64,000 bases of DNA, from the NCBI GenBank assembly GCA_031430855.1, contig JANPCG010000013.1, forward strand, positions 99,781-163,780, written 5' to 3'. Below the pieces are notes generated by a model. The model was not told the DNA's origin and ran no database searches. It was given only the letters and a program-made list of their open reading frames with translations. This stretch comes from Candidatus Kaiserbacteria bacterium. GTDB lineage: Bacteria > Patescibacteriota > Minisyncoccia > Phycocordibacterales > UBA918. Position numbers and translations under genes: made by a program. This document shows, piece by piece, positions 35,196-53,693 of the stretch; position 1 is the first letter of the stretch; every line of letters starts with the position of its first letter.

Positions 35196-35269
35196 CTTCT
35201 TATTTTAACTATATTTTCAATAAAATTGGTTCGAGTCAAAGATGCAAATTGGTCTGGTATACTTTTTGT

Positions 35270-36193
35270 ATGATAGATACTGATTTTCAAGAAAGATTAA
35301 TCGCACATTTAGAAAGAGAGTCCAATTTAATAATTGTATCAACTCAACTTTCTCCTCAAGGAATGTCTAGTTCTGTTTTCTTTATTAAAACAGCACAAGG
35401 TAAAGAATATGCAGTAAAATATGGTGTTGACGCTATGAAAGATATCCCTGCTCTTAATTTGCTTTCGAGGGAACAGGTTAGCATCTCTGTACCGTCAGTG
35501 CTTTGCTCGTTTCGTTTTGAAGAGACATCTGTAATCGTATTGGAAAAAATACAGTTTCCACTATTGGAAACGGTTGCTATGGAAGAAACACCAAAATACA
35601 TTCCTTCAATAATAAAAAATTTGAGAAAGCTACACAGAATAAAATCTATATCTCCAGGATTACTTAACGAACCAGACAGTCAGATGACATGGAAGGAAAT
35701 AATACTTGATATTTTTGAGGGTAATGCATTTAATTGGCAAGAGATTTCGCAGAGGGAAGTAATAAATACTGATTTGATAACAGTATCAGTAGAGAAAGTG
35801 ATCAAGAAAATAAATGACACTGAATTTCCGGTTGGAGAATATTCACTTTTACATACGGACTTTAATCAAAGAAATCTATTTGTGAATCAAGAGAATTATG
35901 AGATAGCAGGAATAATTGATTGGGAAGATGCGATGTATGGAGATCCAATTTATGACTTTGCAAGAGTGCGTATGTATTTATGGCACTTTAATATTGGGAA
36001 TCAGGCAATCAAAAAATACTACGAACTAATGGACTTCACCCCTCATCAAAAAGAGCTTGAGGATTTATACTGGCTTACTCGTGTAATTCAATATATCGGT
36101 TGGTATTCAGAAGAATTAAATGAATTTACTAGAGGGAGGATTAACCTTCATCAAGATTATCTACAATCATACGATTGGTCAAAAAAGTTCTAA
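35270..36193 (+). CDS. aminoglycoside/choline-kinase-like phosphotransferase (APH family)
   Basis: HTDFNQRNLF (HxDxxxxN catalytic loop) and IIDWEDAMYGDPIYDFA (IDWE...D) motifs. Confidence 0.7.
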   Translation: MIDTDFQERLIAHLERESNLIIVSTQLSPQGMSSSVFFIKTAQGKEYAVKYGVDAMKDIPALNLLSREQVSISVPSVLCSFRFEETSVIVLEKIQFPLLETVAMEETPKYIPSIIKNLRKLHRIKSISPGLLNEPDSQMTWKEIILDIFEGNAFNWQEISQREVINTDLITVSVEKVIKKINDTEFPVGEYSLLHTDFNQRNLFVNQENYEIAGIIDWEDAMYGDPIYDFARVRMYLWHFNIGNQAIKKYYELMDFTPHQKELEDLYWLTRVIQYIGWYSEELNEFTRGRINLHQDYLQSYDWSKKF

Positions 36194-36543
36194 TGGTGCG
36201 AATAGTCATAAGATTCGTCCAGGACCGTCCTAGGCGAAACTTTCCTAGCATATCGCTCAATTACCGTCGAGATGTGAAGATAAAAGTATAAGTGATAGGC
36301 CTTGCAGGTCTCAACCTCCCACAGTTCTAGCTCAAGGAAGCCAGTCCTTAGCATAGATTATCCTGTAAAGGGTGATCTTGTCTTAAGGCTACTTGAAGCA
36401 TCTTTATTGGGAGAGTCCTAGGCAAAGTATGCAAAAGTGCTGGCTGATGACGCCATTTAAAGGTATTATTAAATTGCGCCTATTATTGGACTCTAAACGG
36501 AAGTGTTTGTGTCAAGTGAACTAGTATAGATATTTTTGATAGT

Positions 36544-38049
36544 TTGATAAATTATGGTATGAATGAAAATAAGGATAAGGATTTTATAGATGACAAGATT
36601 ACTTCAAGAGCTGCTGATTTTTCTCAATGGTACCTAGATGTGATTAAAGCTGCTGATTTGGCTGAAAATTCACCCGTGAGAGGTTGTATGGTTATAAAAC
36701 CATACGGATATGCTATTTGGGAAAATATACAAAAGATTTTGGATAAAGAATTTAAAGATAAGGGAACAGAAAATGCCTACTTTCCTTTATTAATACCAAA
36801 AAGTTTTTTAGAAAAGGAAGCAGTACACGTTAATGGTTTCGCAAAAGAGTGTGCGGTTGTTACACACCATAGACTAGAAGAAAAGGATGGTAAATTAATT
36901 CCAGCAGGTGAATTGGAAGAGCCTTTAATAATTCGTCCTACATCTGAGACAATTATTTACGATGCTTTTTCAAGGTGGATAAATTCATATCGCGACTTAC
37001 CTCTACTAATAAATCAATGGTCAAACGTTTTTAGATGGGAAATGAGAACACGACCTTTTTTACGCACATCCGAATTTTTATGGCAAGAAGGGCATACTGC
37101 ACACTCCTCGAAAGAGGAGGCTGATAAAAAAACTCTAGAAATGTTAGAGGTATATCGAATGCTTGCAGAGGATTATCTTGCTATTTCGCTCGTCTTAGGA
37201 AGAAAAACTGAAAGTGAGAAGTTTGCGGGCGCAGACTACACCACCACGATTGAGGCAATGATGCAAGATGGTAAAGCTCTTCAGTCAGGGACGTCTCACA
37301 TGCTTGGTCAAAATTTCTCAAAATCATTTGATGTGTCATATTTGGATGAGAATCAAAAAAAACAATATGTTTGGCAAACAAGCTGGGGTCTATCCACAAG
37401 AATTATCGGTGCGATCATCATGTCTCACTCTGATGATAAGGGACTAGTTCTGCCTCCTAAAATCGCTCCATTTCAAGTGATAATTATTCCAATTTACGCC
37501 ACTGAAGAAGATCGAATAGCTGTTATGGAAAAGGTTTCCGTCATTAAAGACGATTTAAATTCAGCGGGAATTTCATTCAAGCTTGATGATAGAGTTGGTC
37601 GTCCTGGCTTTAAATATTTTGAATGGGAAAGAAAAGGTGTTCCATTAAGATTTGAGATTGGACCAAAAGACGTAGAAAAGGGTTCAGTTGTTGTTGTGGA
37701 AAGATTACATGGTACAAAAGAATTTGTTCGGGATAAAGACATTGTTTCATTTGCCCATTCAAGTTTGAAAGAAATGCAAGACTCGCTTTTTGCAAATTCA
37801 AAAAAGTTCAAGGTTGAAAACACTAGGGAAGTCGCAGATTACGAAGAATTTAAGAAGACGATAAGTAATAAAATTGGTTTTGTCTTTGCATATCTTTGTC
37901 TAGATAAAAACTGTGAAGAGAAAATTAAAGAGGAGACCAAGGCATCTAGTAGGTGTATTCCTTTTGAGGGAGGGGTTGGTAATTCTGGTAAATGTATCTA
38001 CTGCGGCAAAGATACTCCTTATAAAGTGCTGTTTGGGAAGGCTTACTAG
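36544..38049 (+). CDS. proS: prolyl-tRNA synthetase, archaeal/eukaryotic type (class IIa, C-terminal Zn-binding domain)
   Basis: colinear similarity to archaeal-type ProRS (FSQWY, YFPLLIPKSFLEKEA.HV.GF, RPTSETIIY, FRWEMRTRPFLRTSEF, CIYCGK); ORF starts TTG 36544, first ATG 36559. Confidence 0.85.
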   Translation: MINYGMNENKDKDFIDDKITSRAADFSQWYLDVIKAADLAENSPVRGCMVIKPYGYAIWENIQKILDKEFKDKGTENAYFPLLIPKSFLEKEAVHVNGFAKECAVVTHHRLEEKDGKLIPAGELEEPLIIRPTSETIIYDAFSRWINSYRDLPLLINQWSNVFRWEMRTRPFLRTSEFLWQEGHTAHSSKEEADKKTLEMLEVYRMLAEDYLAISLVLGRKTESEKFAGADYTTTIEAMMQDGKALQSGTSHMLGQNFSKSFDVSYLDENQKKQYVWQTSWGLSTRIIGAIIMSHSDDKGLVLPPKIAPFQVIIIPIYATEEDRIAVMEKVSVIKDDLNSAGISFKLDDRVGRPGFKYFEWERKGVPLRFEIGPKDVEKGSVVVVERLHGTKEFVRDKDIVSFAHSSLKEMQDSLFANSKKFKVENTREVADYEEFKKTISNKIGFVFAYLCLDKNCEEKIKEETKASSRCIPFEGGVGNSGKCIYCGKDTPYKVLFGKAY

Positions 38050-38054
38050 AGACT

Positions 38055-39185
38055 ATGATTGATATTGTTATTGACAGAAATTTCAGTTTGAACGAGTTGT
38101 TGCAGCTCGGGAAAAAGGGGTTCAAGGTTTTAAAAACTCCTCATGTAGGAAATCAATACATGAATAATTTAATCATTGCTGTGTTGGGTTTTGATATTTT
38201 GGTGTATGACCGAAACATTGGGTTCAAAGACAAAAATTTCCATCCACAATCTGTCATCTTTAATACACGGGAAGAAAAAATTTTTTCAGAAGCTGGGCTG
38301 ACTATTCACTCAAAAAAGATTCTCATAAAAACTGAGAACTCATTTATAAATGAATTATTGCGCGGCTACACTAATCCAGTTTGTTTTCATAATCATTACT
38401 TTTCACTAGCTTGTAATAACCACAAAATTAGTACTTACTCGGAATTTTTAACTAAACATAAAGAAAAAATAGCTAAGATAATTAGTTATACACATGAATT
38501 ATTCAAAGATGATTGGTATAGATATGTAACAAAAGAACAAGAGGTTGTCAACAAAACTGGCTACGTAAGTGGAGACGCTATACTGGGCTTAACGCATAAT
38601 GATTTTGGATGGATTATTCCAAACATTTATAACGTGTTATTTCATTGTGTGATTGACCAAAAAGAAGGGAAAGTATTTCTTTTGTCTGGGCCAGATATGT
38701 ATAAATATATTTGTGAATATGAAGAGCGACTTTCTCGTTCTTGGAGTTATATAATAAAAGAAATTCCAAGTTTGCCAACTCAGGTACAGTGCTTAATTAT
38801 ACCTGTAGCTAAAATTAGATTTGCTATCCCGGAGAAGTATAAAACGTATTTAGATGATGTTTTGAATACATACAATAAAATTAAGGAGTGTGAGAAAAGG
38901 ATGGTTTCTGATGGCGCACAAAATACAAAATTAAATAATTTGGCATACAAACAAGAACTAGTTTCATCTTTGAAATCAATTTTTCAGAAACGTAAAGCAC
39001 TATTTGAAAGTACTATCTTTTATGATATTCGTAAGGCAAGTTCATTTTCACAGTACGACCTACTTCATGTTAAAAGATTGTATGTTCCTGAAATAGTATT
39101 AACCAAAAAGATTTATGAAATAGAGAGTATGTATGATGAACTTTTGAGATACTTTAAATCGAGCAAATATGTCAATGAAGTATAA
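38055..39185 (+). CDS. hypothetical protein
   Basis: ORF in AT-rich island, no motif recognised. Confidence 0.4.
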   Translation: MIDIVIDRNFSLNELLQLGKKGFKVLKTPHVGNQYMNNLIIAVLGFDILVYDRNIGFKDKNFHPQSVIFNTREEKIFSEAGLTIHSKKILIKTENSFINELLRGYTNPVCFHNHYFSLACNNHKISTYSEFLTKHKEKIAKIISYTHELFKDDWYRYVTKEQEVVNKTGYVSGDAILGLTHNDFGWIIPNIYNVLFHCVIDQKEGKVFLLSGPDMYKYICEYEERLSRSWSYIIKEIPSLPTQVQCLIIPVAKIRFAIPEKYKTYLDDVLNTYNKIKECEKRMVSDGAQNTKLNNLAYKQELVSSLKSIFQKRKALFESTIFYDIRKASSFSQYDLLHVKRLYVPEIVLTKKIYEIESMYDELLRYFKSSKYVNEV

Positions 39186-39927
39186 TGCTTTTCTGTATGA
39201 TTTTGATAACCGTCCATTCCTAAAAGAGGAGGTAAGGTTTTATAGACGCTTTGTTAAAGAACACAACATACGAACATATCTTGAATATGGTGTAGGTACG
39301 GGAAGAATTTTTTCCGTTCTCGCGCCAAAATGTGAGTATGCTGTCGGTGTAGATTTGTCTAATGAAATGCTTAAAGTTTGCAGAGAAAAGGTAAAGCATC
39401 TATCAAACTGCGAACTTATTTACGGTGATTTCTTAAATTATAGGAGCGATAGGGTATTTGATCTTTTGGCTATTCCGTTTAACTCATTTCATCACATACT
39501 AACAAAAAAAGATCAAATAAAGTTTTTACGTACAGTAAAAAAGAGTATGGGTGACAAAAGTCTCTTCATGTTAGATACCGTCAACTATTCAGTCGCGCAA
39601 CCCTTAATTGGAACCGTAAATGAATGGAAGCTTGACTATACTTGCAATAAAAAGGAGTTGCAAGTCGTGCGAACACAAATGCTAACAAGAAGAAATTATA
39701 AAATGAAAACCCTAGAAAAAATTTTCAAATATGAAATTTTTAAACAAGGTATCAGAATAAAAGAAGAAAGTTTTGTTGCAAAAATGAAATTTTCTGAATA
39801 TTCAGATATTGAAGCATTGCTGAAAAAAGTTGGGCTAGAAATCGTTAAGGTGTTTTCTAAGTACGAAGATAATGAGAGCGTTGATGGAAGGAAGGCAATA
39901 TATCTAATTAAGAAAAAGCATGTATAA
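39169..39927 (+). CDS. class I SAM-dependent methyltransferase
   Basis: motif I LEYGVGTGRI and downstream acidic residue. Confidence 0.6.
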   Translation: MSMKYNAFLYDFDNRPFLKEEVRFYRRFVKEHNIRTYLEYGVGTGRIFSVLAPKCEYAVGVDLSNEMLKVCREKVKHLSNCELIYGDFLNYRSDRVFDLLAIPFNSFHHILTKKDQIKFLRTVKKSMGDKSLFMLDTVNYSVAQPLIGTVNEWKLDYTCNKKELQVVRTQMLTRRNYKMKTLEKIFKYEIFKQGIRIKEESFVAKMKFSEYSDIEALLKKVGLEIVKVFSKYEDNESVDGRKAIYLIKKKHV

Positions 39928-41185: not shown

Positions 41186-42097
41186 TTATTTATAAACGTA
41201 CTGAATACTTTTATTTTCTGATAATCGAGCTAGACCACTGTACGAAAGAGTTAGTATAATTTTTTCATTATAAATATGAATATTTTTACTGAGTTCAAAT
41301 AGTGAATGATCTGAGGTTTGGTTAAGTATTCTATTTTGATTAGGCAAAAAAGAATCTTCATCAAATTTTGTATATCCACCTGCGACAAGATATTGTCTCC
41401 CTCCCAATCTCTTTAAAATCTGTATAGATGCTGAGAAGTTATCTTTGGATAACGATAATAGATTAGAATTTATATCAGCGTATGTTCCTAAAAAAATCGC
41501 TTCACCAACTCTTAGTTCAATCTTAGTGCCTGATCGAAAATTAATCATATCTATTGAGGGTATAAGATTAGAGCTTCCAAGTGAGACGGTGGTTACATGA
41601 ATGCCATTTCGACTAAATCTATCAACCATTTCTTTCCAAGCATAAAAATACTCGCTTATCGAGAAGTCTTTCTTAAAACACCCGACATTACTTGCTAGTA
41701 TAACTTGTGATAAACCCAACAACTTAAGTTTGATAGTTAGCTTATTTATATCTTGTAAGTCCACTCCTTCACGATCGTCCATTAGGTTCATAAAAATAAT
41801 TTGTGTGTTTCTGCTCTTACTATTTAAAGCGTCAATTGAGTCAATGATTTCTGTTGCACCATATTCTTGATTCGCATTAAAACCTGCAGGAAACCAAATA
41901 TTTTTATACCGCAAAGTCGTAATGTTTTTTTCTTTCAAATCATAAAACAAATCATGTTCTTTAGTGAACGAGGGTAAGTATTCTGTGAGGTCAATTGATT
42001 TTGTAACTACACGCAATGAAACCCTTTTTTCATTCAAAAAAGATTTAATCTTATAAAAATTATCCGTTACACCCTTGTCGTTGACAATCAATTCCAT
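41186..42097 (-). CDS. putative PLP-dependent alanine-racemase-fold (fold-type III) enzyme / amino-acid racemase-like
   Basis: weak: N-terminal LRVVTKS resembles the PLP-lysine region of alanine-racemase-domain proteins; context next to ddl. Confidence 0.3.
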   Translation of the reverse strand: MELIVNDKGVTDNFYKIKSFLNEKRVSLRVVTKSIDLTEYLPSFTKEHDLFYDLKEKNITTLRYKNIWFPAGFNANQEYGATEIIDSIDALNSKSRNTQIIFMNLMDDREGVDLQDINKLTIKLKLLGLSQVILASNVGCFKKDFSISEYFYAWKEMVDRFSRNGIHVTTVSLGSSNLIPSIDMINFRSGTKIELRVGEAIFLGTYADINSNLLSLSKDNFSASIQILKRLGGRQYLVAGGYTKFDEDSFLPNQNRILNQTSDHSLFELSKNIHIYNEKIILTLSYSGLARLSENKSIQYVYK

Positions 42098-42123: not shown

Positions 42124-43116
42124 ATGAAAAAACATAGACTAGTTGTAATTTTTGGTGGCGTATCGAAAGAACATGACGTTTCGCTTATGTCTGCAAAGAA
42201 TTTTTATTATCAAACCAGTAGTGTCTTTGATATTGGACTCATATATATATCTAAAGAAGGTGGGTGGTATATCATGGGTAGTGTTGAAGATGTTGACGAT
42301 CTCACTTTGTTCAATGAGAATCAAGAATCCTGTCTAGATTTACTCCATTCGGCAGATTATGTCTTTCCGATAGTACACGGAAACCAGGGCGAGGACGGTC
42401 AAATTAGCGGCTTTCTTGAATTGATGGGGGTTAAAAATCTTTGCACTGATACTGAATCATCATCTGTTTGCTTTAACAAAAAACTCACAAAAGTCATTGC
42501 ACAAAACAAAAATATTCCAGTTGTGTCATACAAAGCAATGCGAAAGGAGGATGTCTCAGATATGAGCAAATCTTTTCAAGACCTTGAAGCAAGGTTTGGT
42601 GCACCATTTATAATTAAACCAAATCGATCAGGTTCTTCATTTGGTGTCAGTAAGGCTTCTAATGTTGAGAGTTTTGAACACGCAGTTCATGAAGCTTTTA
42701 AATATGATTCCGAAATTATCATTGAAAAATATATTTCAGGTCGAGAGTTATCGTGTGTTATTCTGGGAAACCCAGATAAATATTTAATTACTGGAATTGG
42801 TGAGGACGACACAAAAGGAGATTTTAACACCTATGAAGTTAAGTATTTTTCTGAAAAAGCGGAGTTAATCATACCAGCAAACATTGATCAATGCGTTACA
42901 AAACAAATACAAGAATATTCTGTAACCTTAATGAAAGAACTTAATATTAACGGGTTTGCTAGATATGACTTCTTCCTAAGTGGAGATGATGTATATCTAA
43001 ATGAAATAAACTCATGTCCAGGTATGACAAACCACAGTCTTTTTCCACTTCTTTTGAGTCATAGTCACATCACACTTGCCGATACTGTTAAATTTTTGAT
43101 AGAGAACTATGGATAG
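42124..43116 (+). CDS. ddl: D-alanine--D-alanine ligase family (ATP-grasp)
   Basis: colinear with DdlB: FPIVHGNQGEDGQISGFLELMGV, IIKPNRSGSSFGVSK, EIIIEKYISGRE, LNEINSCPGMTNHSLFP. Confidence 0.85.
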   Translation: MKKHRLVVIFGGVSKEHDVSLMSAKNFYYQTSSVFDIGLIYISKEGGWYIMGSVEDVDDLTLFNENQESCLDLLHSADYVFPIVHGNQGEDGQISGFLELMGVKNLCTDTESSSVCFNKKLTKVIAQNKNIPVVSYKAMRKEDVSDMSKSFQDLEARFGAPFIIKPNRSGSSFGVSKASNVESFEHAVHEAFKYDSEIIIEKYISGRELSCVILGNPDKYLITGIGEDDTKGDFNTYEVKYFSEKAELIIPANIDQCVTKQIQEYSVTLMKELNINGFARYDFFLSGDDVYLNEINSCPGMTNHSLFPLLLSHSHITLADTVKFLIENYG

Positions 43117-45576: not shown

Positions 45577-46569
45577 GATGAGTGTATAGATGTTTTCTAA
45601 TGCTAATAAGTACTCACTTGTAATCTCGAAATTATTTTCCATATCCGGTGAGGAATTGTACTCAATTACTGTAAGGTCATTCACGCTAGAAACCTGGTCT
45701 AATTCTTTGGAAATAAACAGATCAAGACCAACCAGGTCAAGTCCTGTTGCAGAAGTCACATATCTGAGTATCTCGTCAAGAACTTTATTCTGATTTCCAA
45801 CAAAGATAGAAGTGCCACCCTTAGACAGGTTTTTTCCAAAAGAGAGTGGGATTCGCACTTTCTCTCCAGCTACGCTTGTCAAAGCGAGGTTCTCTCGCTC
45901 CAAGATAAACTGTACTTGTGAATCGTTTATATTCAACTGTGTATTTCTATTCTTTGATTCGAACTCTGTCTGTTTGTCTGTAATTAAATCTTTGATTGAG
46001 CGTCGACCGTCACCAACAATACTTGACTGAATTCGTTCATAAAACTGTAAGATTTCACCTTTGAATAATACAACCCTGTACTCTCTTGACTCTATATACT
46101 CCTGAACCACGAAGTCAATTTTTTTTTCTGTAAATAAATTAACAATTTTTTTAAATTCTAATGGATTGCTCACCTTGAATAAATTATTACCGCCTGTGCC
46201 TGTGACGGGTTTTATTATGAACCGTGTACCCTTTTCAGAAAAGATACCTGCCACATCATTTATTTCACTGGGAGTGAGTTCTTTCGGAGTAGGGATCTTC
46301 GCATCTTGTAATAGTACTGAAGAAAGCTTCTTGTTGCCTGCTATAAATGATGAAGCTTCATTATTTACATTTAGAGTTCCGTACGCAAAGAAGAACCTTT
46401 TGTTACCAATTTTTATGTAACCCGTATCCTGTTCTCCAGGCAGTAAATTAAACCCATACTTCTTCTTTGAAGAGATTTCTTTTAAGATGTTAGTCACTAT
46501 AGATTTTGATGTATTCATGCTGTTACTTGTATAATAATACATTATTTTGTAAAAAACTCGTATAATCAA
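45562..46569 (-). CDS. ATP-grasp ligase (RimK / glutathione-synthetase-like)
   Basis: FIIKPVTGTGGNNLFKV nucleotide-binding loop and EYIESREYRVVLFKGE block. Confidence 0.6.
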   Translation of the reverse strand: MIIRVFYKIMYYYTSNSMNTSKSIVTNILKEISSKKKYGFNLLPGEQDTGYIKIGNKRFFFAYGTLNVNNEASSFIAGNKKLSSVLLQDAKIPTPKELTPSEINDVAGIFSEKGTRFIIKPVTGTGGNNLFKVSNPLEFKKIVNLFTEKKIDFVVQEYIESREYRVVLFKGEILQFYERIQSSIVGDGRRSIKDLITDKQTEFESKNRNTQLNINDSQVQFILERENLALTSVAGEKVRIPLSFGKNLSKGGTSIFVGNQNKVLDEILRYVTSATGLDLVGLDLFISKELDQVSSVNDLTVIEYNSSPDMENNFEITSEYLLALENIYTLILERF

Positions 46570-47363: not shown

Positions 47364-47825
47364 TTACGTTAGTCTACTTCTTAAATTAGACACAAATAAA
47401 TTAAAATCTTCAAAAACTTCTACGCCGTATCTATTGCAGGTGATATCCACGTTTCCTTTTCTCCAGAATTCGTTTGTACAAAACACCGCTATCTCTTTCT
47501 TGGCAGCTAACGCTAACCCTAGCTCAAGCAGTGTTATCGGTGATTTTGTATTTGCGTCGAAATAAAAGCAAATTATGTCAGCTGTTTCTAAAATACCCTC
47601 AAGTTCCCAATTAACTTGATCAAAAAATGGTTTGTTTTGTTTGGTCTGCTCCCAAGAAGAGTCCCAGTCATCGCGTCTCGGATTTAGTACCGTAACATCC
47701 AAATCTCCCAGTTCTTGGATTAAGGCTTTCTGCCAATCCTCAGCAGTACCCATTTCGATACTGCCAGCAAAGAAGATTGTTTTATTAGTTTTAATTACCA
47801 TTTCTGGTGGATTTTTAACAATCAT
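47364..47825 (-). CDS. nucleoside 2-deoxyribosyltransferase family protein (DNPH1/Rcl/MilB-like nucleotide N-glycosidase)
   Basis: TIFFAGSIEMG N-terminal motif and ITLLELGLALAAKK with the conserved Glu, as in Rcl/MilB. Confidence 0.6.
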   Translation of the reverse strand: MIVKNPPEMVIKTNKTIFFAGSIEMGTAEDWQKALIQELGDLDVTVLNPRRDDWDSSWEQTKQNKPFFDQVNWELEGILETADIICFYFDANTKSPITLLELGLALAAKKEIAVFCTNEFWRKGNVDITCNRYGVEVFEDFNLFVSNLRSRLT

Positions 47826-47881: not shown

Positions 47882-49975
47882 ATGATTGAGACCATCAAAA
47901 ACCAGGTTATAAAACTAGGTGTACCGGCTCGCGACTTTGATAGCGATAAAATTAGATTACCCAGTCTTATCTACATGTTCTACTGGATAGAAAGGCTAAA
48001 AAACAACAAAGAAGAACAGAACGTAGTGCTAAATAATGTACTCTCTTATCTAAATGTAGAAAATGATATCTTGAATGATATATTAGAAATCGCATACGAT
48101 AACGATATTGCGCTTTTTTGTGAGCGGTATGTTTTTGAAGAGATGATTCAAGTTAACACGGTCGATTTGGTAATTGAAAAAAGTAGCGGTGCTCACGACA
48201 AAGAAATATTGTTATACAAAAGGGACGCCTTCCCACAGGGGCTAGCCTTGCCGGGCGGAATAGTAAATGAGTCTGATGAAACCAATGAGCTTGGAGTTGA
48301 TGGAAAAATATTTTCGGCACTCCGAGTCGGGGCAGAGAAAGTGCTGTGTTTATCTAAAGAAGATATCGTCTACGAAAAGCGTACAGATCAAAGCAGTAAA
48401 GAGTATTTTTCTGTTTCAAACCTAAACAAAACTAAAAGCTTGACTATACGAGCTAAAGAAATTTATGGGTATGTTTATAATGAAAATATAAAAAATGTCA
48501 TACGACCCTCAGATCCTAGACATATCGCCAACACGGTCGGTTATACGTGTGAATTAATATGTTCTGATTTGCCGCAAGATGAATCATACATTTGGGTTAG
48601 TAAAGAAAGGCTTTTAAAACCAGGTGAGATAAAACTAAGTTTTAATCATCACAAAGAAATAATATTTCACCTATTAGCGAAAAGTAACCTGGACAGAGAA
48701 TTAGATTTTACCGAAGAAGAATTTATTAGAAATATAATTCAAAATCCGTTAGATGAGTACCGTAACTTTAAAAAGAGATTTTTAGAAAATAATAATAATC
48801 AAAACACTTCTTTTCCAGAATTATTTACCGTTGTAAATAAATTATTAACAATGCTCTTCACTGAAGAGATCAATAGTTTGTGCGAAGAAGTTAACGTGCT
48901 CAATGGGATGCGAGACAAGGTGGCAATATCACTCAGGCATACATCTTTGAAAAATAGAGTGTTTTGCCCGTACGCTCCAACCATCAGATCAATTTTTGAA
49001 TCGATTACTTTTTTTGATGTTGTCGCGAGACACAAGAAGAATTTTTATCACGGCCTACCGACCGATAAAATTATTGAGCATAACCCGAGAGAAAAGGAGT
49101 ATTCTTCTTATCATATGTATCGGTATAAATATCGGTTAGATGATATTTTTAGTATGATACCGAGCGAAATTATTATACCTACGTTCGCGTCATTGTCTGC
49201 CACTGATCTGATGAAGATTAGGGGTATTCCGGTACGATTTGTAGGACTCGCTACTGATTTCTTGTATGTAGATGAATTTGAACAGTCTCCCGAAGAGTTC
49301 TTGATGCATGACTGCAATCACTCTTGGAGAATGATACAAGAAGATAATCAGGCCTGTATAGATATGTCACTGAGTAAAGATCTTCTGATAGAAGAATCCA
49401 ATGCATTTATACAAGAATACCTGCCGAGTATAAAAATAAATAAAACAGATACTGAAGAAGAACGAGAAATAAAAAAAATAAAGAAAATAATTTTATTTGA
49501 AATTGTACACGAAGACGCGAGGCCGTTTCTCCGAAAGATAATCGGTGATTATATTCAAGTCAAAGAAGGTGGAGAAGTGAGATTTGAATTGCCGAGAATA
49601 GATCAAGAGACTGGATATATGGATGTGGTCGATACCCTCGATACTGGTATAAGTACATTGTCCTATGTGAGGAATAAGCTTCAGCATGGATTTTACGATC
49701 AAGTTGATTCACAGCTACCCCAAATTGTAAGTCCTAAATACAGAAAATCAGAGTATATAGCTAAAGCAGCCTACCAAATGCTTCGGGAACTGAACGCTGA
49801 TGCTTCCAGCGTTGCGGACCTTGATATTGATGGACTTCCTACTTATGAGTGGTTGTTGCGGAGAGTTTGTTCAGTTGGTCCGGACAATATTCATAACCCT
49901 AACGAAGTCGACGATATCCTGAATCAGTATTCTGATGGAGTAGATAAATTGAATCCCAAGCGATATCAGGCATAG
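47882..49975 (+). CDS. large hypothetical protein (697 aa)
   Basis: ORF; no confident motif. Confidence 0.45.
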   Translation: MIETIKNQVIKLGVPARDFDSDKIRLPSLIYMFYWIERLKNNKEEQNVVLNNVLSYLNVENDILNDILEIAYDNDIALFCERYVFEEMIQVNTVDLVIEKSSGAHDKEILLYKRDAFPQGLALPGGIVNESDETNELGVDGKIFSALRVGAEKVLCLSKEDIVYEKRTDQSSKEYFSVSNLNKTKSLTIRAKEIYGYVYNENIKNVIRPSDPRHIANTVGYTCELICSDLPQDESYIWVSKERLLKPGEIKLSFNHHKEIIFHLLAKSNLDRELDFTEEEFIRNIIQNPLDEYRNFKKRFLENNNNQNTSFPELFTVVNKLLTMLFTEEINSLCEEVNVLNGMRDKVAISLRHTSLKNRVFCPYAPTIRSIFESITFFDVVARHKKNFYHGLPTDKIIEHNPREKEYSSYHMYRYKYRLDDIFSMIPSEIIIPTFASLSATDLMKIRGIPVRFVGLATDFLYVDEFEQSPEEFLMHDCNHSWRMIQEDNQACIDMSLSKDLLIEESNAFIQEYLPSIKINKTDTEEEREIKKIKKIILFEIVHEDARPFLRKIIGDYIQVKEGGEVRFELPRIDQETGYMDVVDTLDTGISTLSYVRNKLQHGFYDQVDSQLPQIVSPKYRKSEYIAKAAYQMLRELNADASSVADLDIDGLPTYEWLLRRVCSVGPDNIHNPNEVDDILNQYSDGVDKLNPKRYQA

Positions 49976-50095: not shown

Positions 50096-50542
50096 ATGAA
50101 AAAAATACTTTATTATGTCCCTACATTATTTAGTGGAAGAATGCACCGTTTAAATCTTCTTAAGAATTGGCTGTTTATGATAGTTGGTTTTGTGGTATTT
50201 GTCTTATCTTTAGGTGAGTATCTTCCCGATGGGTCCTACTATGGAACTTTTGGAACACCAGATTTCTCATTTGCTACGGCCTTTTTCTTATTTTTATGTC
50301 AGACACTCTACATTTTTTGGATAATTTTGATGTTATCAATCCTGACTCGAAGGTGGCATGATATTGGCTATGGTGGGTGGGTATTGCTTATTCTTGTACC
50401 AATGAGCTTCGTCCCTTTAGTATTTTTATTTGTCCTTTTCTTGCGGGGAGATGAGAAAGTGAACCGTTACGGTGAATCTCCATCGGAGAGTTGGTCTTTA
50501 GAGGATTTTGTTAGATTAAAATACTTTAAAAACGTAAGTTAA
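50096..50542 (+). CDS. DUF805-like inner membrane protein
   Basis: RRWHDIGYGGWVLLIL matches the RRxHD..xxGW signature of DUF805 (YhaH/YhaI-like). Confidence 0.55.
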   Translation: MKKILYYVPTLFSGRMHRLNLLKNWLFMIVGFVVFVLSLGEYLPDGSYYGTFGTPDFSFATAFFLFLCQTLYIFWIILMLSILTRRWHDIGYGGWVLLILVPMSFVPLVFLFVLFLRGDEKVNRYGESPSESWSLEDFVRLKYFKNVS

Positions 50543-50687: not shown

Positions 50688-51734
50688 ATGCAAGAATCTA
50701 TTTCTCGGAGGGTACAATTAGCTATTCAAGATAACGTGTTCCCTGGGTGTGTCGTTGGTGTCGTACATAAAAACAGAGAAAGACTAATCTTGCCATATGG
50801 TACTTTTACCTATGACGCTCTTTCTCCAAGGGTACAAGAGGATTCTTTATACGACACTGCTTCATTAACAAAGTCTATACCAACAGCCAGTCTCGCATTA
50901 ATGCTGATTGATCAGGGTAAGTTACATATCCAAGATAAGCTCATTGATTATGTTCCTGAATTTAATAATGGAGATAGAGAGGCTGTTCTGATAAAACATT
51001 TATTAACCTACACTCTCGACGGGTATGGTTTAGCTTCACAAAAACAAAAGACAGCAGACGAGTTATTACATACCATTCTCACCCAGGATTTTGAAAAGCG
51101 ACCGGGTACTGTTTTTAAATACACCAATATACCAGCGGCCTTGCTTGGATTAGTAATCGAAAAAATTATGGGAAGTACGCTCGATGCGTTGGCTGACGAA
51201 TATTTTTTTACACCGCTCAAAATGAGCCGAACGACTTTCTACCCAGAAAATTTTCCGCTCGAAGAGGTTGTACCAACCGAGATTGATGACTGGAGAGGTT
51301 TGGTGCAAGGAATCGTTCATGATGAGAGCGCGTATATTTTTAAGAAGAAAGGCAGGATTATGGGTCATGCTGGGGTGTTTTCAACTGCCGGTGATATTCT
51401 AAATTTCTTAGAAATGCTACTGAATGAAGGAACTTTCGGTGACCGAACGTACTTTTCAAGAGAGATAGTAAAACTGATGGGCACCAATCAGATTGCTGAG
51501 CTGAATGATTTTACTGGCCTTGGTTGGGAATTGAACCAGCCAAGATTCCTAGGAAAAAACGGTACTGAACACACCTTTGCAAAAACTGGCTTTACTGGAA
51601 CTCTTTGTGTTTGTGACGTGGAAAAAGAAGTTGCGTATGTAATCTTGTCGAACCGAATTTATCCAAAGCGCCCAATAGATTCAGTAGCGATTAACTCTTT
51701 ACGGGCTGATTTGGGTGAAATCATACTAAAATAG
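50688..51734 (+). CDS. serine hydrolase, beta-lactamase class C / PBP4*-like / esterase family
   Basis: SxxK (ASLTKS), YxN (YTN), KTG (FAKTGFTG) motifs in order. Confidence 0.75.
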   Translation: MQESISRRVQLAIQDNVFPGCVVGVVHKNRERLILPYGTFTYDALSPRVQEDSLYDTASLTKSIPTASLALMLIDQGKLHIQDKLIDYVPEFNNGDREAVLIKHLLTYTLDGYGLASQKQKTADELLHTILTQDFEKRPGTVFKYTNIPAALLGLVIEKIMGSTLDALADEYFFTPLKMSRTTFYPENFPLEEVVPTEIDDWRGLVQGIVHDESAYIFKKKGRIMGHAGVFSTAGDILNFLEMLLNEGTFGDRTYFSREIVKLMGTNQIAELNDFTGLGWELNQPRFLGKNGTEHTFAKTGFTGTLCVCDVEKEVAYVILSNRIYPKRPIDSVAINSLRADLGEIILK

Positions 51735-51802: not shown

Positions 51803-51823
51803 TTCTTTCTTCGCCTAGGACTC
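51803..51823. repeat. second copy of the GCCTAGGACTCTCCTAGGCAA palindrome
   Basis: identical to 49984..50004. Confidence 0.7.
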
Positions 51824-51934
51824 TCCTAGGCAAAGCTTCCAGCAATTCTCGCTTCTCAGTCATTGGTCTGTCTCGCTGTATGTGTTTAATGTAGCCGTTT
51901 GGGGATCGGTTCTATCAGACTCTTCTTTTTGACT

Positions 51935-52513
51935 CTACTCTGCTGTGAATAAGTAGCGATTACAGTTGTTGTTCTTGTAGCTCGGTGGGTAGTCTTCTTC
52001 GTCAAAGGCTGCTCCTAAAATTCGTTCAGTTCCACTCCATCCGATTGTTGGGTATATAGGTTCAATGTAAGATCTTACTGTATGTAATGTGTAGCTACTA
52101 AGTACTTCGTTTAATTTATTTAGGTGGGGGTTGGCTATAGCAAATGCGATAAGTTCAGATAGAGTTAATGGGCGATATCCGATTCTCGTCATGTTAGCCA
52201 ACATCTTATTACGACCATCGAGATTAGTTGCTCCGATGTTTAGTATGTAAACCCAAAAAGATGAAGATGTCGGAGCTGTCCAAGGAATTTCCCTCAGTAC
52301 CCCCTCTGTGAAGCTTGCCGAACCCTGGTCTGCATCTTTAAATAAATTTACTGCTGATTCATATGTCTCTAGTAAATTTAGGTTTTTATCATTTATTTTA
52401 ATATTAACTACCCCTCCATCTATTGAAACATCTAGTCTGATTGGAATATCCGCATTTTCGCATTTTTTAATAAAATCAATAATTTGCGGTAGTTTGGTGT
52501 TAATTTTTTGCAT
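51935..52513 (-). CDS. hypothetical protein
   Basis: ORF only. Confidence 0.4.
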   Translation of the reverse strand: MQKINTKLPQIIDFIKKCENADIPIRLDVSIDGGVVNIKINDKNLNLLETYESAVNLFKDADQGSASFTEGVLREIPWTAPTSSSFWVYILNIGATNLDGRNKMLANMTRIGYRPLTLSELIAFAIANPHLNKLNEVLSSYTLHTVRSYIEPIYPTIGWSGTERILGAAFDEEDYPPSYKNNNCNRYLFTAE

Positions 52514-53034
52514 ACATTTTTGATGGTTTAAATGGTGTCACAATCATAAGATGAAATTAGATATCCAAACCCCAACTTGGTTAAATTATGTGTTACGAAG
52601 AGATATAAAGCAATCTAAGTAATGTAACCATCTAGACTTTCTTTAAGTCAACTTGCAAATAGAGGCATAACTTGCCAGTATTTAAGTGTGCTTCAAAAGG
52701 TTGTATACAAAGAATCTTAGGTTGGGTTAGTAATTAGTGTGATGCTAATTAGTTGCCTTAGAAAAAGCTAAGACAAGGTTTGGTTTATTTGCATCAACGT
52801 GTGGGACTGATATTTTGTACCACAGGCTTTGTCTAAGAGAGCTGTAGGTAAAGCCTGTGGTACGTAGTGCCGCAAATGTTCATCGATGCGTATTGCAATT
52901 TGTGGTTCCAAAGCGAAATAGTTTTTTATGCTGATAAAAATAATGAAAAACTAGATGTAGCTGCAACTGATATACTGCTACCTACGTACGGTAAATATAG
53001 TGAATACAACGTTAGAAATTAATTATATAAACAA

Positions 53035-53446
53035 ATGACTAAACAGCTGCAATTACGCTGGATGTTTAATAGTGAAAAATATGACTTTGTAACAGAGTTA
53101 CAAAAGGCAACAAAACGCCAGTTCTTAGGTACGGCTGATATGCAAAAAGCTTTATTGTGTACTGAAGAAGATGTTTTTTTTGTATGCAAAAGAGCATCAA
53201 ATGGTAAAGAAATTAATTGGTACGTATAATCCTAAATTTCATGAAGAAACAACTGATGGAGATTATATCTTGCATGAAAATGATGTTTATAATTTATATA
53301 CAAAAGAGCGCGGAAACAAAACCTTTATCATGGGTTTTCATTCAGAGGAAGCGGCTAAGAAGTGGGTGTTGTCAAATGATGACCATTCTGATGAAGCGCT
53401 ACGTAACTATATCAGAAGCCAATTTAATTTTTACATCAAAAAGTAA
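53035..53446 (+). pseudogene. small gene split by a frameshift at a T8 homopolymer (ORFs 53035..53229 and 53171..53446)
   Basis: two overlapping ORFs in adjacent frames joined at GATGTTTTTTTTGTATGC; either a true pseudogene, a phase-variable tract or a sequencing error. Confidence 0.3.
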
Positions 53447-53693
53447 ACCTGAAAGAAATCCTAGGGTATCCATAGGAACTCACGAGTCTATTTTTATTGA
53501 TACAGAAACGTTTGTAGCAATCCAAATATCTTTATGATCATGGTGAGTCTGTCGTCAAATTCTTGCAGACCTAGAATGGCCAACTTCCTTAGGTCGCTGC
53601 CTTTACTTTCTCGCTATTTTTAGTAGTCTGGGCAATAGATTGGCGGTGTATACCGCTGAATGTATAACAGTCACATATCAAACGGAGAACGTG

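What the first reader, a model, noticed from the sequence alone, without database searches (positions are those of the whole stretch)
35200..53640. 18 kb low-GC island with ProRS, Ddl, a Mur ligase, an ATP-grasp ligase and a DNPH1/MilB-like N-glycosidase: candidate biosynthetic cluster
The island is compositionally foreign at roughly 33% GC. It combines an archaeal-type prolyl-tRNA synthetase and three amide-bond ligases of different classes: D-Ala-D-Ala ligase, a Mur ligase and a RimK-like ATP-grasp. It also has a PLP racemase-like enzyme, a PhyH 2OG oxygenase, a SAM methyltransferase, an APH-like kinase and a class-C beta-lactamase-like hydrolase. The clustering of aminoacyl- and peptide-forming enzymes is typical of peptidyl- or aminoacyl-nucleoside natural-product clusters. 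The ProRS could be a resistant target copy, in which case the product would mimic prolyl-adenylate. The APH-like kinase and the beta-lactamase-like hydrolase would then be candidate self-protection or tailoring genes. Alternatives are a VanA-like peptidoglycan-precursor remodelling island, or simply the organism's only ProRS residing in a low-GC region.
Basis: inference. Interest (0 to 1): 0.7.

Follow-up and report, generated by a model that had tools for sequence, protein, structure and literature searches.

The report
proS-anchored peptide-ligase cassette in Parcubacteria
The low-GC block is real, but it is an ordinary prolyl-tRNA synthetase gene followed by an undescribed, swappable five-gene set of amide-bond-forming enzymes found only in some Parcubacteria, plus extra genes unique to this lineage; what it makes is unknown.

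Summary
Observation confirmed: 35200-53640 is 35.4% GC against 48% on both sides, and every domain call holds (the racemase call only weakly).

The host is a Parcubacteria/Paceibacterota (CPR) bacterium. proS lies at a position shared with syntenic relatives. Its divergence tracks SerRS, and orthologs occur in six module-less genomes, so it is most likely the working ProRS, not a resistance copy.

Directly behind proS (2-11 nt gap) is a five-gene module: unknown X, an N-methyltransferase-like SAM MTase, a BshC-like class-I-aaRS-fold protein Y, a MurF-like ligase lacking domain 1, and a cyanophycin-synthetase/RimK-like ATP-grasp. It recurs behind proS in about ten lineages. It is always AT-richer than its host and has been exchanged as a discrete unit with breakpoints at gene edges.

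Found only in this lineage among the 21 related loci compared: the APH-like kinase, a racemase-like gene plus a true D-Ala-D-Ala ligase inserted before the MurF-like gene, the PhyH oxygenase, and a 7-kb tail (NDT-like, u697, DUF805, serine hydrolase).

Best reading: an accessory, ribosome-independent pathway building a short, probably N-methylated, D-Ala-containing peptide or peptide decoration. The product is unknown. No literature describing it was found.

The parts
35125..35196 (+). tRNA-Gln(CTG). Marks the left edge of the low-GC block. It also precedes proS in the syntenic relative L084.
   Evidence: ARAGORN and Rfam. Aligned to L084 9320-9408. No second copy of its 3' end in the window.
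35249..36193 (+). APH-family kinase-like gene (33.5% GC), a lineage-specific insertion between tRNA-Gln and proS.
   Evidence: PF01636 E 1.8e-18; only weak NCBIfam matches. Not found next to proS in any of the other loci.
36559..38049 (+). proS, an archaeal-type prolyl-tRNA synthetase. First gene of the operon and anchor of the cassette; probably the cell's working ProRS.
   Evidence: tRNA-synt_2b + HGTP_anticodon + ProRS-C_1. Hundreds of Paceibacterota orthologs at 60-82%. Synteny with L084 and L094. No linked-versus-unlinked signature. GC3 is 28.6%, so compositionally it belongs to the low-GC block.
38055..39185 (+). unkX (376 aa), a new family with no Pfam/NCBIfam/PDB match. Starts 5 nt after the proS stop. 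Invariant motifs KTPH[VI]GN and LLSGPDMY.
   Evidence: Follows proS in at least 13 loci. In non-proS contexts it is followed by an M19 dipeptidase, and in L103 also by an Asp/Glu racemase. The structure model failed (pLDDT 37.6).
39169..39927 (+). SAM-dependent methyltransferase; overlaps X and Y. Nearest solved relatives are amine N-methyltransferases acting on small molecules or peptides.
   Evidence: Methyltransf_25/31/11. PDB sequence hits 1Y8C, CypM 7WZG, CcbJ 4HGY. The L091 ortholog's best NCBIfam match is the daptide MTase. These are the same enzymes listed as NmbA's nearest structural neighbours in PMC12719100.
39920..41182 (+). unkY (420 aa), a Parcubacteria-only family with a class-I aminoacyl-tRNA-synthetase-like Rossmann fold closest to BshC.
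41186..42097 (-). Racemase-like protein (303 aa, weak call). A lineage-specific insertion paired with Ddl.
   Evidence: Ala_racemase_N E 0.0098; Orr E 1.2e-6. No PDB hit. Absent from other loci, several of which instead carry a true Alr upstream of proS.
42124..43116 (+). D-alanine--D-alanine ligase. A lineage-specific insertion whose stop overlaps the MurF-like start by 8 nt.
   Evidence: TIGR01205 284.7 > 245.65. All DdlB catalytic residues are present, including E15, S150, K215, Y216. Only two close relatives (98%, 81%), then 39% or less. Absent from the other loci.
43109..44353 (+). MurF-like Mur ligase lacking the N-terminal (UDP-MurNAc-binding) domain 1. A core module gene.
   Evidence: Mur_ligase_M+C. 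murF 166.9 bits against a cutoff of 288.6. Aligns to T. maritima MurF residues 72-428. In four module ligases E. coli MurF aligns from residue 92; this window's copy gave no tblastn hit to it, and its missing domain 1 is shown. P-loop, K202, DDxxN and GDM are conserved, with a shared ~25-aa insertion.
44383..45576 (+). PhyH-family Fe(II)/2OG oxygenase with a ~190-aa C-terminal extension. A lineage-specific insertion.
   Evidence: PF05721 E 1e-12. Absent from the other loci.
45562..46569 (-). ATP-grasp ligase (cyanophycin-synthetase G-domain / RimK / GshB-like). A core module gene, inverted in this lineage. The start is probably at 46518 (318 aa), as called in the public assemblies.
   Evidence: 37-42% identical to the module ATP-grasps of other loci.
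47364..47825 (-). Nucleoside 2-deoxyribosyltransferase-like (PF15891) protein. Lineage-specific tail; divergent from u697.
   Evidence: PF15891 E 3.6e-32. phrog_30579 E 2.3e-49. Absent from the other loci.
47882..49975 (+). u697, an unknown two-part protein. The N-terminal part is faintly Nudix-like. The C-terminal domain (~270-640) recurs in large multidomain proteins.
   Evidence: No Pfam/NCBIfam/PADLOC/PHROG hit. PDB 2yyh E 0.32. 279 relatives. No informative partner domains. Not on viral contigs.
50096..50542 (+). DUF805 membrane protein (lineage-specific tail).
   Evidence: PF05656 E 3e-15.
50688..51734 (+). Beta-lactamase-family serine hydrolase (PBP4B/AmpH-like). Lineage-specific tail.
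   Evidence: PF00144 E 7.5e-48. PBP4B 121 bits, below cutoff.
51935..53446 (.). Right end of the low-GC block: u192 (51935-52513, -), 650 nt without an ORF containing a hairpin (52817-52863), and u91 (53171-53446, +).
   Evidence: No family hits.

Best explanation
The block has three layers.

(1) proS. This is the organism's archaeal-type prolyl-tRNA synthetase, at a position inherited with the neighbouring backbone (DprA-SerRS-Dus-DnaX ... tRNA-Gln-proS). It most likely serves as the ordinary translational enzyme, although its allele may have been exchanged between Parcubacteria together with what follows it.

(2) The core module. Fused to proS in one operon is an accessory five-gene cassette, X-MT-Y-Mur*-AG. 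It occurs only in a minority of Parcubacteria, always directly behind proS. It stays at 31-37% GC whatever the host's GC, and it has been swapped between lineages as a discrete unit.

(3) Additions not seen at any other related locus: an APH-like kinase, a racemase-like gene plus a genuine D-Ala-D-Ala ligase inserted immediately before the MurF-like gene, a PhyH oxygenase, and a 7-kb tail (NDT-like, u697, DUF805, serine hydrolase, two small unknowns).

Proposed mechanism (inferred, not shown): ribosome-independent, ATP-driven assembly of a short peptide or a peptide decoration.
- Y, with a BshC/MshC-like class-I-aaRS fold, activates an amino acid and joins it to an amine acceptor.
- The adjacent N-methyltransferase-like enzyme methylates the freed amine.
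- The MurF-like ligase lacks the UDP-binding domain and so probably acts on a non-nucleotide acceptor. It adds D-Ala-D-Ala or a related D-amino-acid unit, supplied by Alr in other lineages and by the inserted racemase-like gene plus Ddl here.
- The ATP-grasp extends a C-terminal carboxylate.
- X acts on D-amino-acid dipeptide-type substrates.

The cassette-like exchange, fast divergence and low GC resemble variable surface-structure loci. I therefore favour a variable envelope or peptidoglycan-related component, or a secreted small peptide.
For: Layer 1 (proS):
- Collinearity with L084 at 65-78% nucleotide identity, including tRNA-Gln and proS, and with L094.
- ProRS identity tracks SerRS identity: 82/81% for L084 and 53/57% for L094.
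- Six ProRS orthologs sampled blind have no module.
- No substitution separates all module-linked from unlinked ProRS.

Layer 2 (core module):
- The Y family has 28 members, the named ones from Parcubacteria or 'bacterium'.
- The same string is complete in L091, L092/93, L097, L098, L099 and L107 (X is disrupted in L099 and L107) and partial at contig ends in L094, L095, L096, L100, L102, L105 and L108.
- The gap from the proS stop to the X start is 2-11 nt in the 8 loci where it was mapped.
- Module GC is 31-37% against flanks of 35-52%.
- L107's ProRS groups with L092/L099 (88-89%) while its X..AG genes group with L098 (78-88%).
- Similarity blocks end at gene edges.
- X is disrupted in L107/L100 and L099, as expected for an accessory gene.

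Layer 3 (additions):
- None of Ddl, Alr303, PhyH, NDT, u697, DUF805, Bla or u192 is found in any other locus.
- The Ddl has only two close relatives.

Mechanistic clues:
- Y's fold.
- The MTase's nearest relatives are amine N-methyltransferases.
- The MurF-like catalytic motifs are intact but domain 1 is absent.
- The ATP-grasp is closest to peptide-forming enzymes: CphA G domain, Ngg, RimK, GshB.
- A true Alr is linked in L091/L094/L097.
- The Ddl is of D-Ala-D-Ala type and overlaps the MurF-like start.
- X lies next to an M19 dipeptidase and an Asp/Glu racemase elsewhere.
Against: - No product, substrate or activity is shown; every mechanistic step is inferred from fold or family resemblance.
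- X has no detectable relative, and its model failed.
- I could not count proS, ddl, murF or alr in the whole genome, so a housekeeping role for the MurF-like ligase or the Ddl is not excluded.
- proS is as AT-rich as the cassette (GC3 28.6%). It is closer to L087's ProRS (90%, unrelated context) than to the syntenic L084's (82%). In L092/L099 it travels inside the shared block. So proS may itself be cargo rather than a fixed anchor.
- No mobility gene or att site explains the exchanges.
- Co-transcription is inferred from spacing only; promoter and terminator scans were at chance level.
Confidence: 0.5

Rival explanations
1. The cluster makes an aminoacyl- or peptidyl-nucleoside antibiotic that mimics prolyl-adenylate. 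The linked ProRS is the producer's resistant target. APH and the beta-lactamase-like hydrolase provide self-protection or tailoring.
For: The module is linked to proS in every Parcubacteria copy where the upstream sequence is held, which calls for an explanation. It holds several ligases and two aaRS-related proteins (ProRS and Y). An NDT/DNPH1-like gene is present in this window. L087 shows that a genome can hold two ProRS genes.
Against: Orthologous ProRS at 68-90% identity is present in six module-less genomes, and no residue distinguishes linked from unlinked enzymes. The NDT-like gene, APH and hydrolase are absent from every other copy of the module, so no nucleoside-handling enzyme belongs to the conserved pathway. 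X is disrupted in two lineages while proS stays intact.
Confidence: 0.07
2. Plain housekeeping. Alr/racemase, Ddl, the MurF-like ligase and the ATP-grasp are the organism's only D-Ala branch of peptidoglycan precursor synthesis and simply lie in an AT-rich region next to proS.
For: The Ddl is catalytically canonical. The Mur ligase's best match is MurF, with catalytic motifs intact. ddl-murF adjacency is common in Firmicutes (my knowledge). A true Alr is linked in other lineages. The backbone encodes DD-carboxypeptidases, so D-Ala-D-Ala termini are expected. No other mur gene lies in the 64-kb window.
Against: The close syntenic relative L084 keeps the S11 DD-carboxypeptidase but lacks the whole module, and so do five other sampled genomes. 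The Ddl has almost no relatives. The MurF-like ligase lacks domain 1 and scores below the MurF cutoff in all versions. Cassette exchange and 29-42% identity to other versions are unlike core cell-wall genes.
Confidence: 0.12
3. A translation-linked modification system. The aaRS-like and ligase enzymes aminoacylate, methylate or peptidylate a protein or tRNA involved in proline decoding (for example an EF-P- or RimK-type modification), which would explain the obligatory operon with proS.
For: Strict proS-X coupling with 2-11 nt gaps. aaRS paralogs such as EpmA/PoxA and GluQRS, and RimK, modify translation components (my knowledge). The ATP-grasp has RimK-family similarity.
Against: No efp, ribosomal-protein or tRNA-modification gene is linked. 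The Alr, Ddl, MurF-like and M19-dipeptidase associations point to free D-amino-acid peptide chemistry. The patchy distribution and cassette swapping are odd for a translation factor modification.
Confidence: 0.1
4. A low-molecular-weight thiol or cofactor pathway analogous to N-methyl-bacillithiol. The BshC-like Y adds cysteine to an amine acceptor, the MTase N-methylates it, and the other ligases elaborate it.
For: Y's best structural match is BshC. The MTase's relatives are the same enzymes that are closest to the bacillithiol N-methyltransferase NmbA. The ATP-grasp shows GshB/GshAB similarity.
Against: No BshA-like glycosyltransferase or BshB-like deacetylase is in any version. Y is not a Pfam BshC member. 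The role of D-Ala and of a MurF-like ligase would be unexplained. A redox buffer would not be expected to be patchy and cassette-like.
Confidence: 0.08
5. A Van-type peptidoglycan-precursor remodelling island that gives glycopeptide resistance.
For: A racemase-like gene, a Ddl-family ligase, a MurF-like ligase and a DD-peptidase-like hydrolase lie in one region.
Against: The Ddl has the Tyr216 triad typical of D-Ala-D-Ala ligases and scores far below the Van-specific models. No VanH, VanX/XY or VanRS domains were found. The hydrolase is 6 kb away, in the lineage-specific tail.
Confidence: 0.03

Closest known systems
Stand-alone-ligase peptide pathways (peptidoglycan stem-peptide synthesis by Mur ligases plus Ddl; cyanophycin synthetase, which combines an ATP-grasp with a Mur-like domain)
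   Same: It combines a Mur-family ligase, ATP-grasp ligases and an alanine racemase. The Mur ligase is closest to MurF, and here it is translationally coupled to a true D-Ala-D-Ala ligase. The ATP-grasp's best match is the cyanophycin synthetase G domain.
   Different: The MurF-like enzyme lacks domain 1 and carries a family-specific insertion. The ATP-grasp and Mur ligase are separate proteins in Mur-then-ATP-grasp order, and the Mur part is not CphA-M-like. The set includes two families unknown in either pathway (X, Y) and a methyltransferase. It is accessory, patchy and tied to proS.
BshC / MshC-type aaRS-like amino-acid ligases, with NmbA-type N-methylation (bacillithiol, N-methyl-bacillithiol, mycothiol)
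   Same: Y has the class-I-aaRS-like Rossmann fold, closest to BshC. The overlapping gene encodes a methyltransferase from the same neighbourhood of amine N-methyltransferases as NmbA.
   Different: There is no sequence-level membership in the BshC family. No BshA or BshB partners are present. The extra MurF-like and ATP-grasp ligases and the D-Ala supply have no counterpart in thiol pathways.
Antibiotic clusters that carry a resistant aminoacyl-tRNA synthetase copy (e.g. albomycin/SerRS, agrocin 84/LeuRS, mupirocin/IleRS; recalled from memory)
   Same: An aaRS gene is physically tied to a set of biosynthetic-looking enzymes.
   Different: Here the aaRS has orthologs in module-less relatives at the same chromosomal position, shows no distinguishing substitutions, and leads the operon. 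A second housekeeping copy is not demonstrated.
Variable surface-structure loci anchored by conserved flanking genes (O-antigen and capsule loci; recalled from memory)
   Same: GC is persistently below the genome average. Alleles are highly divergent at one fixed chromosomal site. Whole cassettes are exchanged with breakpoints next to a conserved housekeeping gene.
   Different: There are no glycosyltransferases, flippases or polymerases. The content is amide ligases. Only one conserved anchor (proS) is evident.

Membership tests
tRNA-integrated genomic island | An integrase or recombinase gene inside the island | tested here: not met
   No recombinase domain in any ORF between 35200 and 53640. 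The window's serine recombinase at 5863-7629 belongs to a different low-GC block.
tRNA-integrated genomic island | A direct repeat of the tRNA 3' end at the distal boundary | tested here: not met
   The 25-nt 3' end of tRNA-Gln occurs once with up to 3 mismatches allowed. The repeat search found none.
tRNA-integrated genomic island | Absent from close relatives at the same site | tested here: inconclusive
   L084 has tRNA-Gln followed by proS but lacks X..AG and the tail. The more distant L094 has proS plus the module at the syntenic site.
Biosynthetic cluster with a self-resistant aaRS copy | A second, housekeeping copy of the same aaRS elsewhere in the genome | not testable with these tools
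   Only 64 kb of the genome is readable, and the genome is not in the species-representative collection.
Biosynthetic cluster with a self-resistant aaRS copy | The cluster-linked aaRS is distinct from the ordinary enzyme of related, cluster-less organisms | tested here: not met
   Orthologs of 68-90% identity occur in six module-less loci. No column separates linked from unlinked enzymes.
Peptidyl- or aminoacyl-nucleoside cluster | Nucleoside-forming or nucleoside-modifying enzymes conserved with the ligases | tested here: not met
   The PF15891 gene is present only in this window's version.
D-alanine--D-alanine ligase (Ddl) | Score above the curated family cutoff, with the catalytic residues including the E15-S150-Y216 triad | tested here: met
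   TIGR01205 284.7 > 245.65. Invariant with E. coli DdlB at E15, S150, K215, Y216, R255, D257, E270, N272, S281.
Van-type D-Ala-D-Lac / D-Ala-D-Ser ligase cluster | A ligase lacking Tyr216 and matching Van models, plus VanH/VanX/VanT/VanRS partners | tested here: not met
   Tyr216 is present. Van models score 150-233 bits against cutoffs of 495-775. No partner domains found.
MurF (UDP-MurNAc-tripeptide--D-Ala-D-Ala ligase) | Three-domain architecture including the N-terminal substrate-binding domain 1 | tested here: not met
   The alignment to T. maritima MurF starts at residue 72. The multiple alignment with E. coli MurF shows residues 1 to about 85 missing in this and four other module ligases. 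In four module ligases the tblastn match to E. coli MurF starts at residue 92. Pfam finds only the M and C domains.
MurF (UDP-MurNAc-tripeptide--D-Ala-D-Ala ligase) | Score above the curated family cutoff | tested here: not met
   TIGR01143 166.9 bits here and 207-210 bits in L091/L092/L098, against a cutoff of 288.6.
Mur ligase superfamily | P-loop, the conserved lysine (K202 of E. coli MurF) and the C-terminal DDxxN motif | tested here: met
   Invariant in alignment A5.
Cyanophycin synthetase | A fused ATP-grasp (G) and Mur-like (M) domain protein reaching the family cutoff | tested here: not met
   The ATP-grasp matches the G domain at 108-113 bits against a cutoff of 850. The Mur ligase matches the CphA model at only 21 bits. 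The genes are separate.
BshC (bacillithiol cysteine-adding enzyme) | Class-I-aaRS-like Rossmann core structurally superimposable on BshC | tested here: met
BshC (bacillithiol cysteine-adding enzyme) | Sequence membership in the family, with BshA and BshB partners in the genome | tested here: not met
   No Pfam or NCBIfam hit. The profile does not reach 4wbd. No glycosyltransferase or deacetylase lies in any module locus. A genome-wide check was not possible.

The most novel reading that the evidence does not exclude
Parcubacteria carry a previously undescribed, horizontally exchangeable cassette that is always fused behind proS. It encodes a new ribosome-independent peptide-ligation pathway built from two unrecognised enzyme families (X, and the BshC-like Y), an amine N-methyltransferase, a nucleotide-independent MurF derivative and an ATP-grasp. 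The proS linkage is functional: the pathway draws on ProRS, prolyl-AMP or Pro-tRNA. The product is a variable envelope peptide or secreted metabolite used in the episymbiotic lifestyle of these reduced bacteria.
Probability: 0.3. Interest if true: 0.78.

Novelty: new variant of a known kind. Interest (0 to 1): 0.6.

Why it matters
CPR/Patescibacteria have tiny genomes with very little biosynthetic capacity, and few of their lineage-specific genes have any assigned function. A conserved yet mobile operon that devotes about 5.5 kb to four or five amide-bond-forming or tailoring enzymes, two of them new families, suggests these cells make a dedicated peptide-like molecule or cell-wall decoration.

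It also offers several testable handles:
- A MurF derivative without its nucleotide-binding domain.
- A second structural relative of BshC, whose chemistry is, to my recollection, still unresolved.
- A rare example of a housekeeping aaRS gene acting as the fixed docking point, or fellow traveller, of an exchangeable cassette.

For genome scanning it is a caution. Here low GC marks a locus with its own long-term composition, not a recent one-off import, and an aaRS next to ligases need not be a resistance gene.

Tried and rejected
- Naming the host via cluster-member names: no names returned. The genome-collection scan with DnaX named only distant relatives (54% or less), so the host genome itself is not in that collection.
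The single-sequence model was unusable (pLDDT 37.6). The profile against PDB sequences and hhalign of X against Y gave nothing. My reading of KTPHVGN / SGPDMY / K[MI]RF as HIGH / GxDQ / KMSKS-like motifs therefore remains untested and is not used as evidence.
- Defence and phage libraries: no hallmark hits in the island, apart from the NDT-like protein matching a PHROG of unknown function. No viral-contig relatives of Y or u697.
- Rfam at permissive threshold: no riboswitch, T-box or other element in the island.
- Promoter and terminator scans: at chance level, with only one strong hairpin after u697.
- att-like repeats at cassette edges: none seen.
- Partner domains of u697's C-terminal domain: uninformative.
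- Scan of all fetched loci for canonical mur/ddl genes: none found, which is uninformative because only about 20 kb per genome is held.
- Context of a typical Patescibacteria Ddl: stand-alone among housekeeping genes, not decisive.
- Assembly chimera: rejected for the left junction, which recurs in three assemblies, and because the tRNA-Gln-proS adjacency exists independently in L084.

Full report
**1. The observation**

The window is a mosaic. The backbone is 48.2% GC (7630-35124) and 48.0% GC (53640-64000). The flagged block 35200-53640 is 35.4% GC. The drop is seen at synonymous sites: GC3 is 26-36% in island genes against about 41-65% in most backbone genes.

The left edge falls right after tRNA-Gln(CTG) at 35125-35196. 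The right edge falls just before a 52%-GC reverse-transcriptase gene at 53640.

The exception is the 303-aa 'racemase-like' protein, which is a weak call.

The left junction recurs at 99.98-100% identity in an NCBI assembly (GCA_043735715.1) and in two independent Logan assemblies.

**2. The host, and what is ancestral**

Backbone genes, including a short 346-aa DnaX, have their nearest named relatives in Paceibacterota, Parcubacteria and Nomurabacteria. The ProRS's 60-82% relatives are from the same group. Host and island therefore belong to the same broad lineage.

A 288-kb metagenomic contig (L084) is collinear with the window through SerRS, Dus, the S11 peptidase, DnaX, a histidine phosphatase, tRNA-Gln and ProRS, at 65-78% nucleotide identity. 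After ProRS, L084 carries small ORFs, a type I restriction system and a serine recombinase instead. A more distant contig (L094) has DprA-SerRS-x-Dus-DnaX-Alr-ProRS followed by the same genes that follow ProRS in the window.

ProRS identity tracks SerRS identity: 82/81% for L084 and 53/57% for L094. So proS is not a stray import into a tRNA site. The tRNA-Gln-proS adjacency predates the split from L084.

**3. The conserved core**

The 420-aa unknown (Y) belongs to a family of only 28 sequence clusters. The few that carry a name come from Parcubacteria or an unclassified 'bacterium'. Looking up where these are encoded, and then scanning metagenomes with an alignment of the 376-aa unknown (X), showed one recurring string:

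- proS
- X (about 385 aa)
- SAM methyltransferase (about 250 aa)
- Y (about 430 aa)
- Mur ligase with M and C domains only (about 430 aa)
- RimK-like ATP-grasp (about 330 aa)

The string is complete in L091, L092/93, L097, L098, L099 and L107, although X is disrupted in L099 and L107. It is cut by contig ends in L094, L095, L096, L100, L102, L105 and L108. X starts 2-11 nt after the proS stop in the eight loci where the start was mapped. A bona fide alanine racemase (TIGR00492 276 against a cutoff of 168) lies divergently upstream of proS in L091, L094 and L097.

None of these loci contains the window's Ddl, 303-aa racemase-like gene, PhyH, NDT-like gene, u697, DUF805, beta-lactamase-like gene or u192. 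The window's version is therefore the core plus insertions:

- the racemase-like gene and Ddl between Y and the Mur ligase;
- PhyH between the Mur ligase and an inverted ATP-grasp;
- APH in front of proS;
- a 7-kb tail.

**4. The core is accessory, AT-rich everywhere, and exchanged as a unit**

Six ProRS orthologs chosen without regard to the module (68-90% identity: L084, L087, L089, L110, L111, L112) are followed by unrelated genes.

In every host the module is 31-37% GC, while the flanks range from 35 to 52%. Low GC is therefore a standing property of the locus, not evidence of a recent import into this one genome.

Identity matrices show incongruence. L107's ProRS groups with L092/L099 (88-89%), but its X, MT, Y, Mur and AG group with L098 (78-88%), whose ProRS is only 56% identical. 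A sliding-window comparison puts the switch exactly at the proS stop / X start.

Pairwise BLASTN shows similarity blocks that end at gene edges:

- X to AG, 5.5 kb at 87% (L107/L098);
- proS to AG, 7.0 kb at 84% (L092/L099);
- Alr to AG, 8.1 kb at 70% (L091/L097).

Flanks are unrelated in each pair.

The window's own module is 29-42% identical to all the others. Only L095 is closer (ProRS 83%, X 63%). X is frameshifted in L107/L100 and carries a stop in L099.

No integrase or att-like repeat explains the exchanges. Homologous large serine recombinases (55-59% identity) do lie within 9 kb of proS in L084, L091 and L092.

**4b. Status of proS**

Evidence for an ordinary working enzyme:
- synteny;
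- orthologs in module-less genomes;
- full domain set;
- no alignment column separating all module-linked from unlinked ProRS, with only four mostly conservative columns differing within the close group.

Evidence that the allele may travel with the cassette:
- its GC3 (28.6%) matches the island, not the backbone;
- it is closer to L087's ProRS (90% protein, 86% DNA, unrelated context, and with a second ProRS 5 kb away) than to the syntenic L084's;
- the L092/L099 shared block includes proS.

I conclude that it is functionally the housekeeping ProRS (about 0.8). It may have been replaced by recombination. The 'resistant copy' idea is unsupported but not excluded, because I could not count proS genes in the genome.

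**5. What the enzymes look like**

*MT.* Its nearest solved relatives are 1Y8C, CypM (peptide alpha-N-methylation) and CcbJ. The L091 ortholog's best NCBIfam match is the daptide N-methyltransferase. The NmbA paper lists this same set as the closest structures to the bacillithiol N-methyltransferase (PMC12719100).

*Mur ligase.* Its best family is MurF, but it scores below cutoff here (167 bits) and in typical versions (about 208 bits; cutoff 288.6). It lacks roughly the first 85 residues of E. coli MurF (domain 1). It keeps the P-loop, the K202 equivalent, and the DDxxN and GDM motifs, and it has a shared ~25-aa insertion.

*ATP-grasp.* Its best matches are the cyanophycin synthetase G domain (108-113 bits), N-acetylglutaminylglutamine synthetase, RimK and GshAB. 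All of these form peptide bonds at a carboxylate.

*Ddl.* It passes the curated cutoff and keeps all DdlB catalytic residues, including the E15-S150-Y216 triad. From established Ddl enzymology, that triad marks D-Ala-D-Ala rather than D-Ala-D-Lac or D-Ser ligases. Its stop overlaps the MurF-like start by 8 nt. This supports the idea that the MurF-like enzyme uses D-Ala-D-Ala.

*X.* It has no detectable relative, and its single-sequence model failed. In the two held loci where annotated genes follow an X homolog outside a proS context (L103, L104), the next gene is an M19 dipeptidase. In L103 an Asp/Glu racemase and a second X paralog follow as well. This independently ties X to D-amino-acid and dipeptide chemistry.

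**6. Explanation and rivals**

The best-supported reading is an accessory, proS-fused operon for ATP-driven, ribosome-independent assembly of a short peptide or peptide decoration. The product is probably N-methylated and D-Ala-containing, and is built on a non-nucleotide acceptor. The locus evolves like a variable surface-structure locus. The architecture and evolutionary statements are shown by the comparisons above. Every chemical step is inference.

Rivals:
- A prolyl-adenylate-mimic antibiotic with a resistant ProRS (0.07).
- The sole housekeeping D-Ala branch of peptidoglycan synthesis (0.12).
- A translation-linked modification system (0.10).
- A bacillithiol-like thiol pathway (0.08).
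- Van-type remodelling (0.03).

**7. Comparison with known systems, and novelty**

The parts belong to known superfamilies: Mur ligase, ATP-grasp, class-I-aaRS fold and class I methyltransferase. The general idea of peptide assembly by stand-alone ligases is also known.

What is new:
- the combination of enzymes;
- the two unannotated families;
- the domain-1-less MurF clade;
- the obligatory fusion behind proS;
- the cassette-like exchange with a host-independent low GC.

Literature searches found no description of it. I rate it a new variant of a known kind, with interest 0.6. It remains substantial because a real, recurrent and unexplained operon emerged.

**8. Limits**

- Genome-wide copy numbers of proS, ddl, murF and alr could not be obtained.
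- The right junction was not verified in other assemblies.
- Co-transcription rests on gene spacing only.
- The fold assignment of Y is structural only.
- X remains uncharacterised.

Noticed in passing
window 1-7629: A second low-GC block (37.4% GC). It holds a Ser/Thr protein kinase (992-3049), several unknown ORFs and a 588-aa large serine recombinase (5863-7629) whose 3' end overlaps tRNA-Tyr (7533-7616, minus strand). It looks like a classic integrative element, unlike the flagged block.
   Followed up: partly
window 28-149: A full-length match to the LOOT RNA family (RF03000), 81.8 bits against a gathering score of 46.4.
   Followed up: no
window 53640-54665 and 51893-51925: A 341-aa reverse transcriptase (RVT_1; weak retron-like and CRISPR-associated-RT-like matches) at 52% GC lies immediately right of the island. 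A 33-nt, 85%-identical fragment of its coding sequence lies inside the island.
   Followed up: partly
window 55118-55190 and 55914-55986: A perfect 73-nt direct repeat spaced 796 nt apart. It contains a terminator-like hairpin. The second copy overlaps the 3' end of the M48 peptidase gene (55963-57240, minus strand).
   Followed up: no
window 35035-35056: A 22-nt copy (95% identical) of the 5' end of tRNA-Gln lies 88 nt upstream of the intact tRNA-Gln. It may be a truncated tRNA remnant.
   Followed up: no
window 36212-36242, 36410-36427, 49980-50006, 51808-51838: A palindromic repeat, GCCTAGGACTCTCCTAGGC, recurs in island intergenic regions: after APH, before proS, after u697 and after the beta-lactamase-like gene. 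The copy at 49980 scores as the only strong terminator-like hairpin.
   Followed up: partly
window 47364-49975: A divergent gene pair. One is an NDT-like protein (PF15891; strong match to a PHROG of unknown function). The other is a 697-aa unknown with a faintly Nudix-like N-terminal part and a C-terminal domain shared with 279 proteins, including giants of up to 4,960 aa. It may be a separate nucleotide-centred system unrelated to the ligase module.
   Followed up: partly
window 33027-34934: Three tandem histidine-phosphatase (His_Phos_1) paralogs lie between dnaX and tRNA-Gln. The relative L084 has one.
   Followed up: no
window 7711-12106: Three proteins with T4SS-pilin-like N-terminal domains. 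One also carries an M15 D-Ala-D-Ala carboxypeptidase domain.
   Followed up: no
L087 10001-11491 and 16608-18047: One metagenomic contig carries two ProRS genes 5 kb apart. One is 90% identical to the window's. The other is 47% identical and lies in a 45-52% GC stretch of a ~40% GC contig.
   Followed up: partly
L107 9042-10131 (also L100) and L099 1954-3141: unkX is split into two reading frames in L107/L100 and has an in-frame stop in L099, while the rest of the module looks intact.
   Followed up: partly
L084 20053-21381, L091 16213-17541, L092 4579-5898: Homologous large serine recombinases (55-59% identical to one another) lie within 9 kb of proS in three different lineages. This hints at a recombinase family associated with the proS neighbourhood.
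   Followed up: partly
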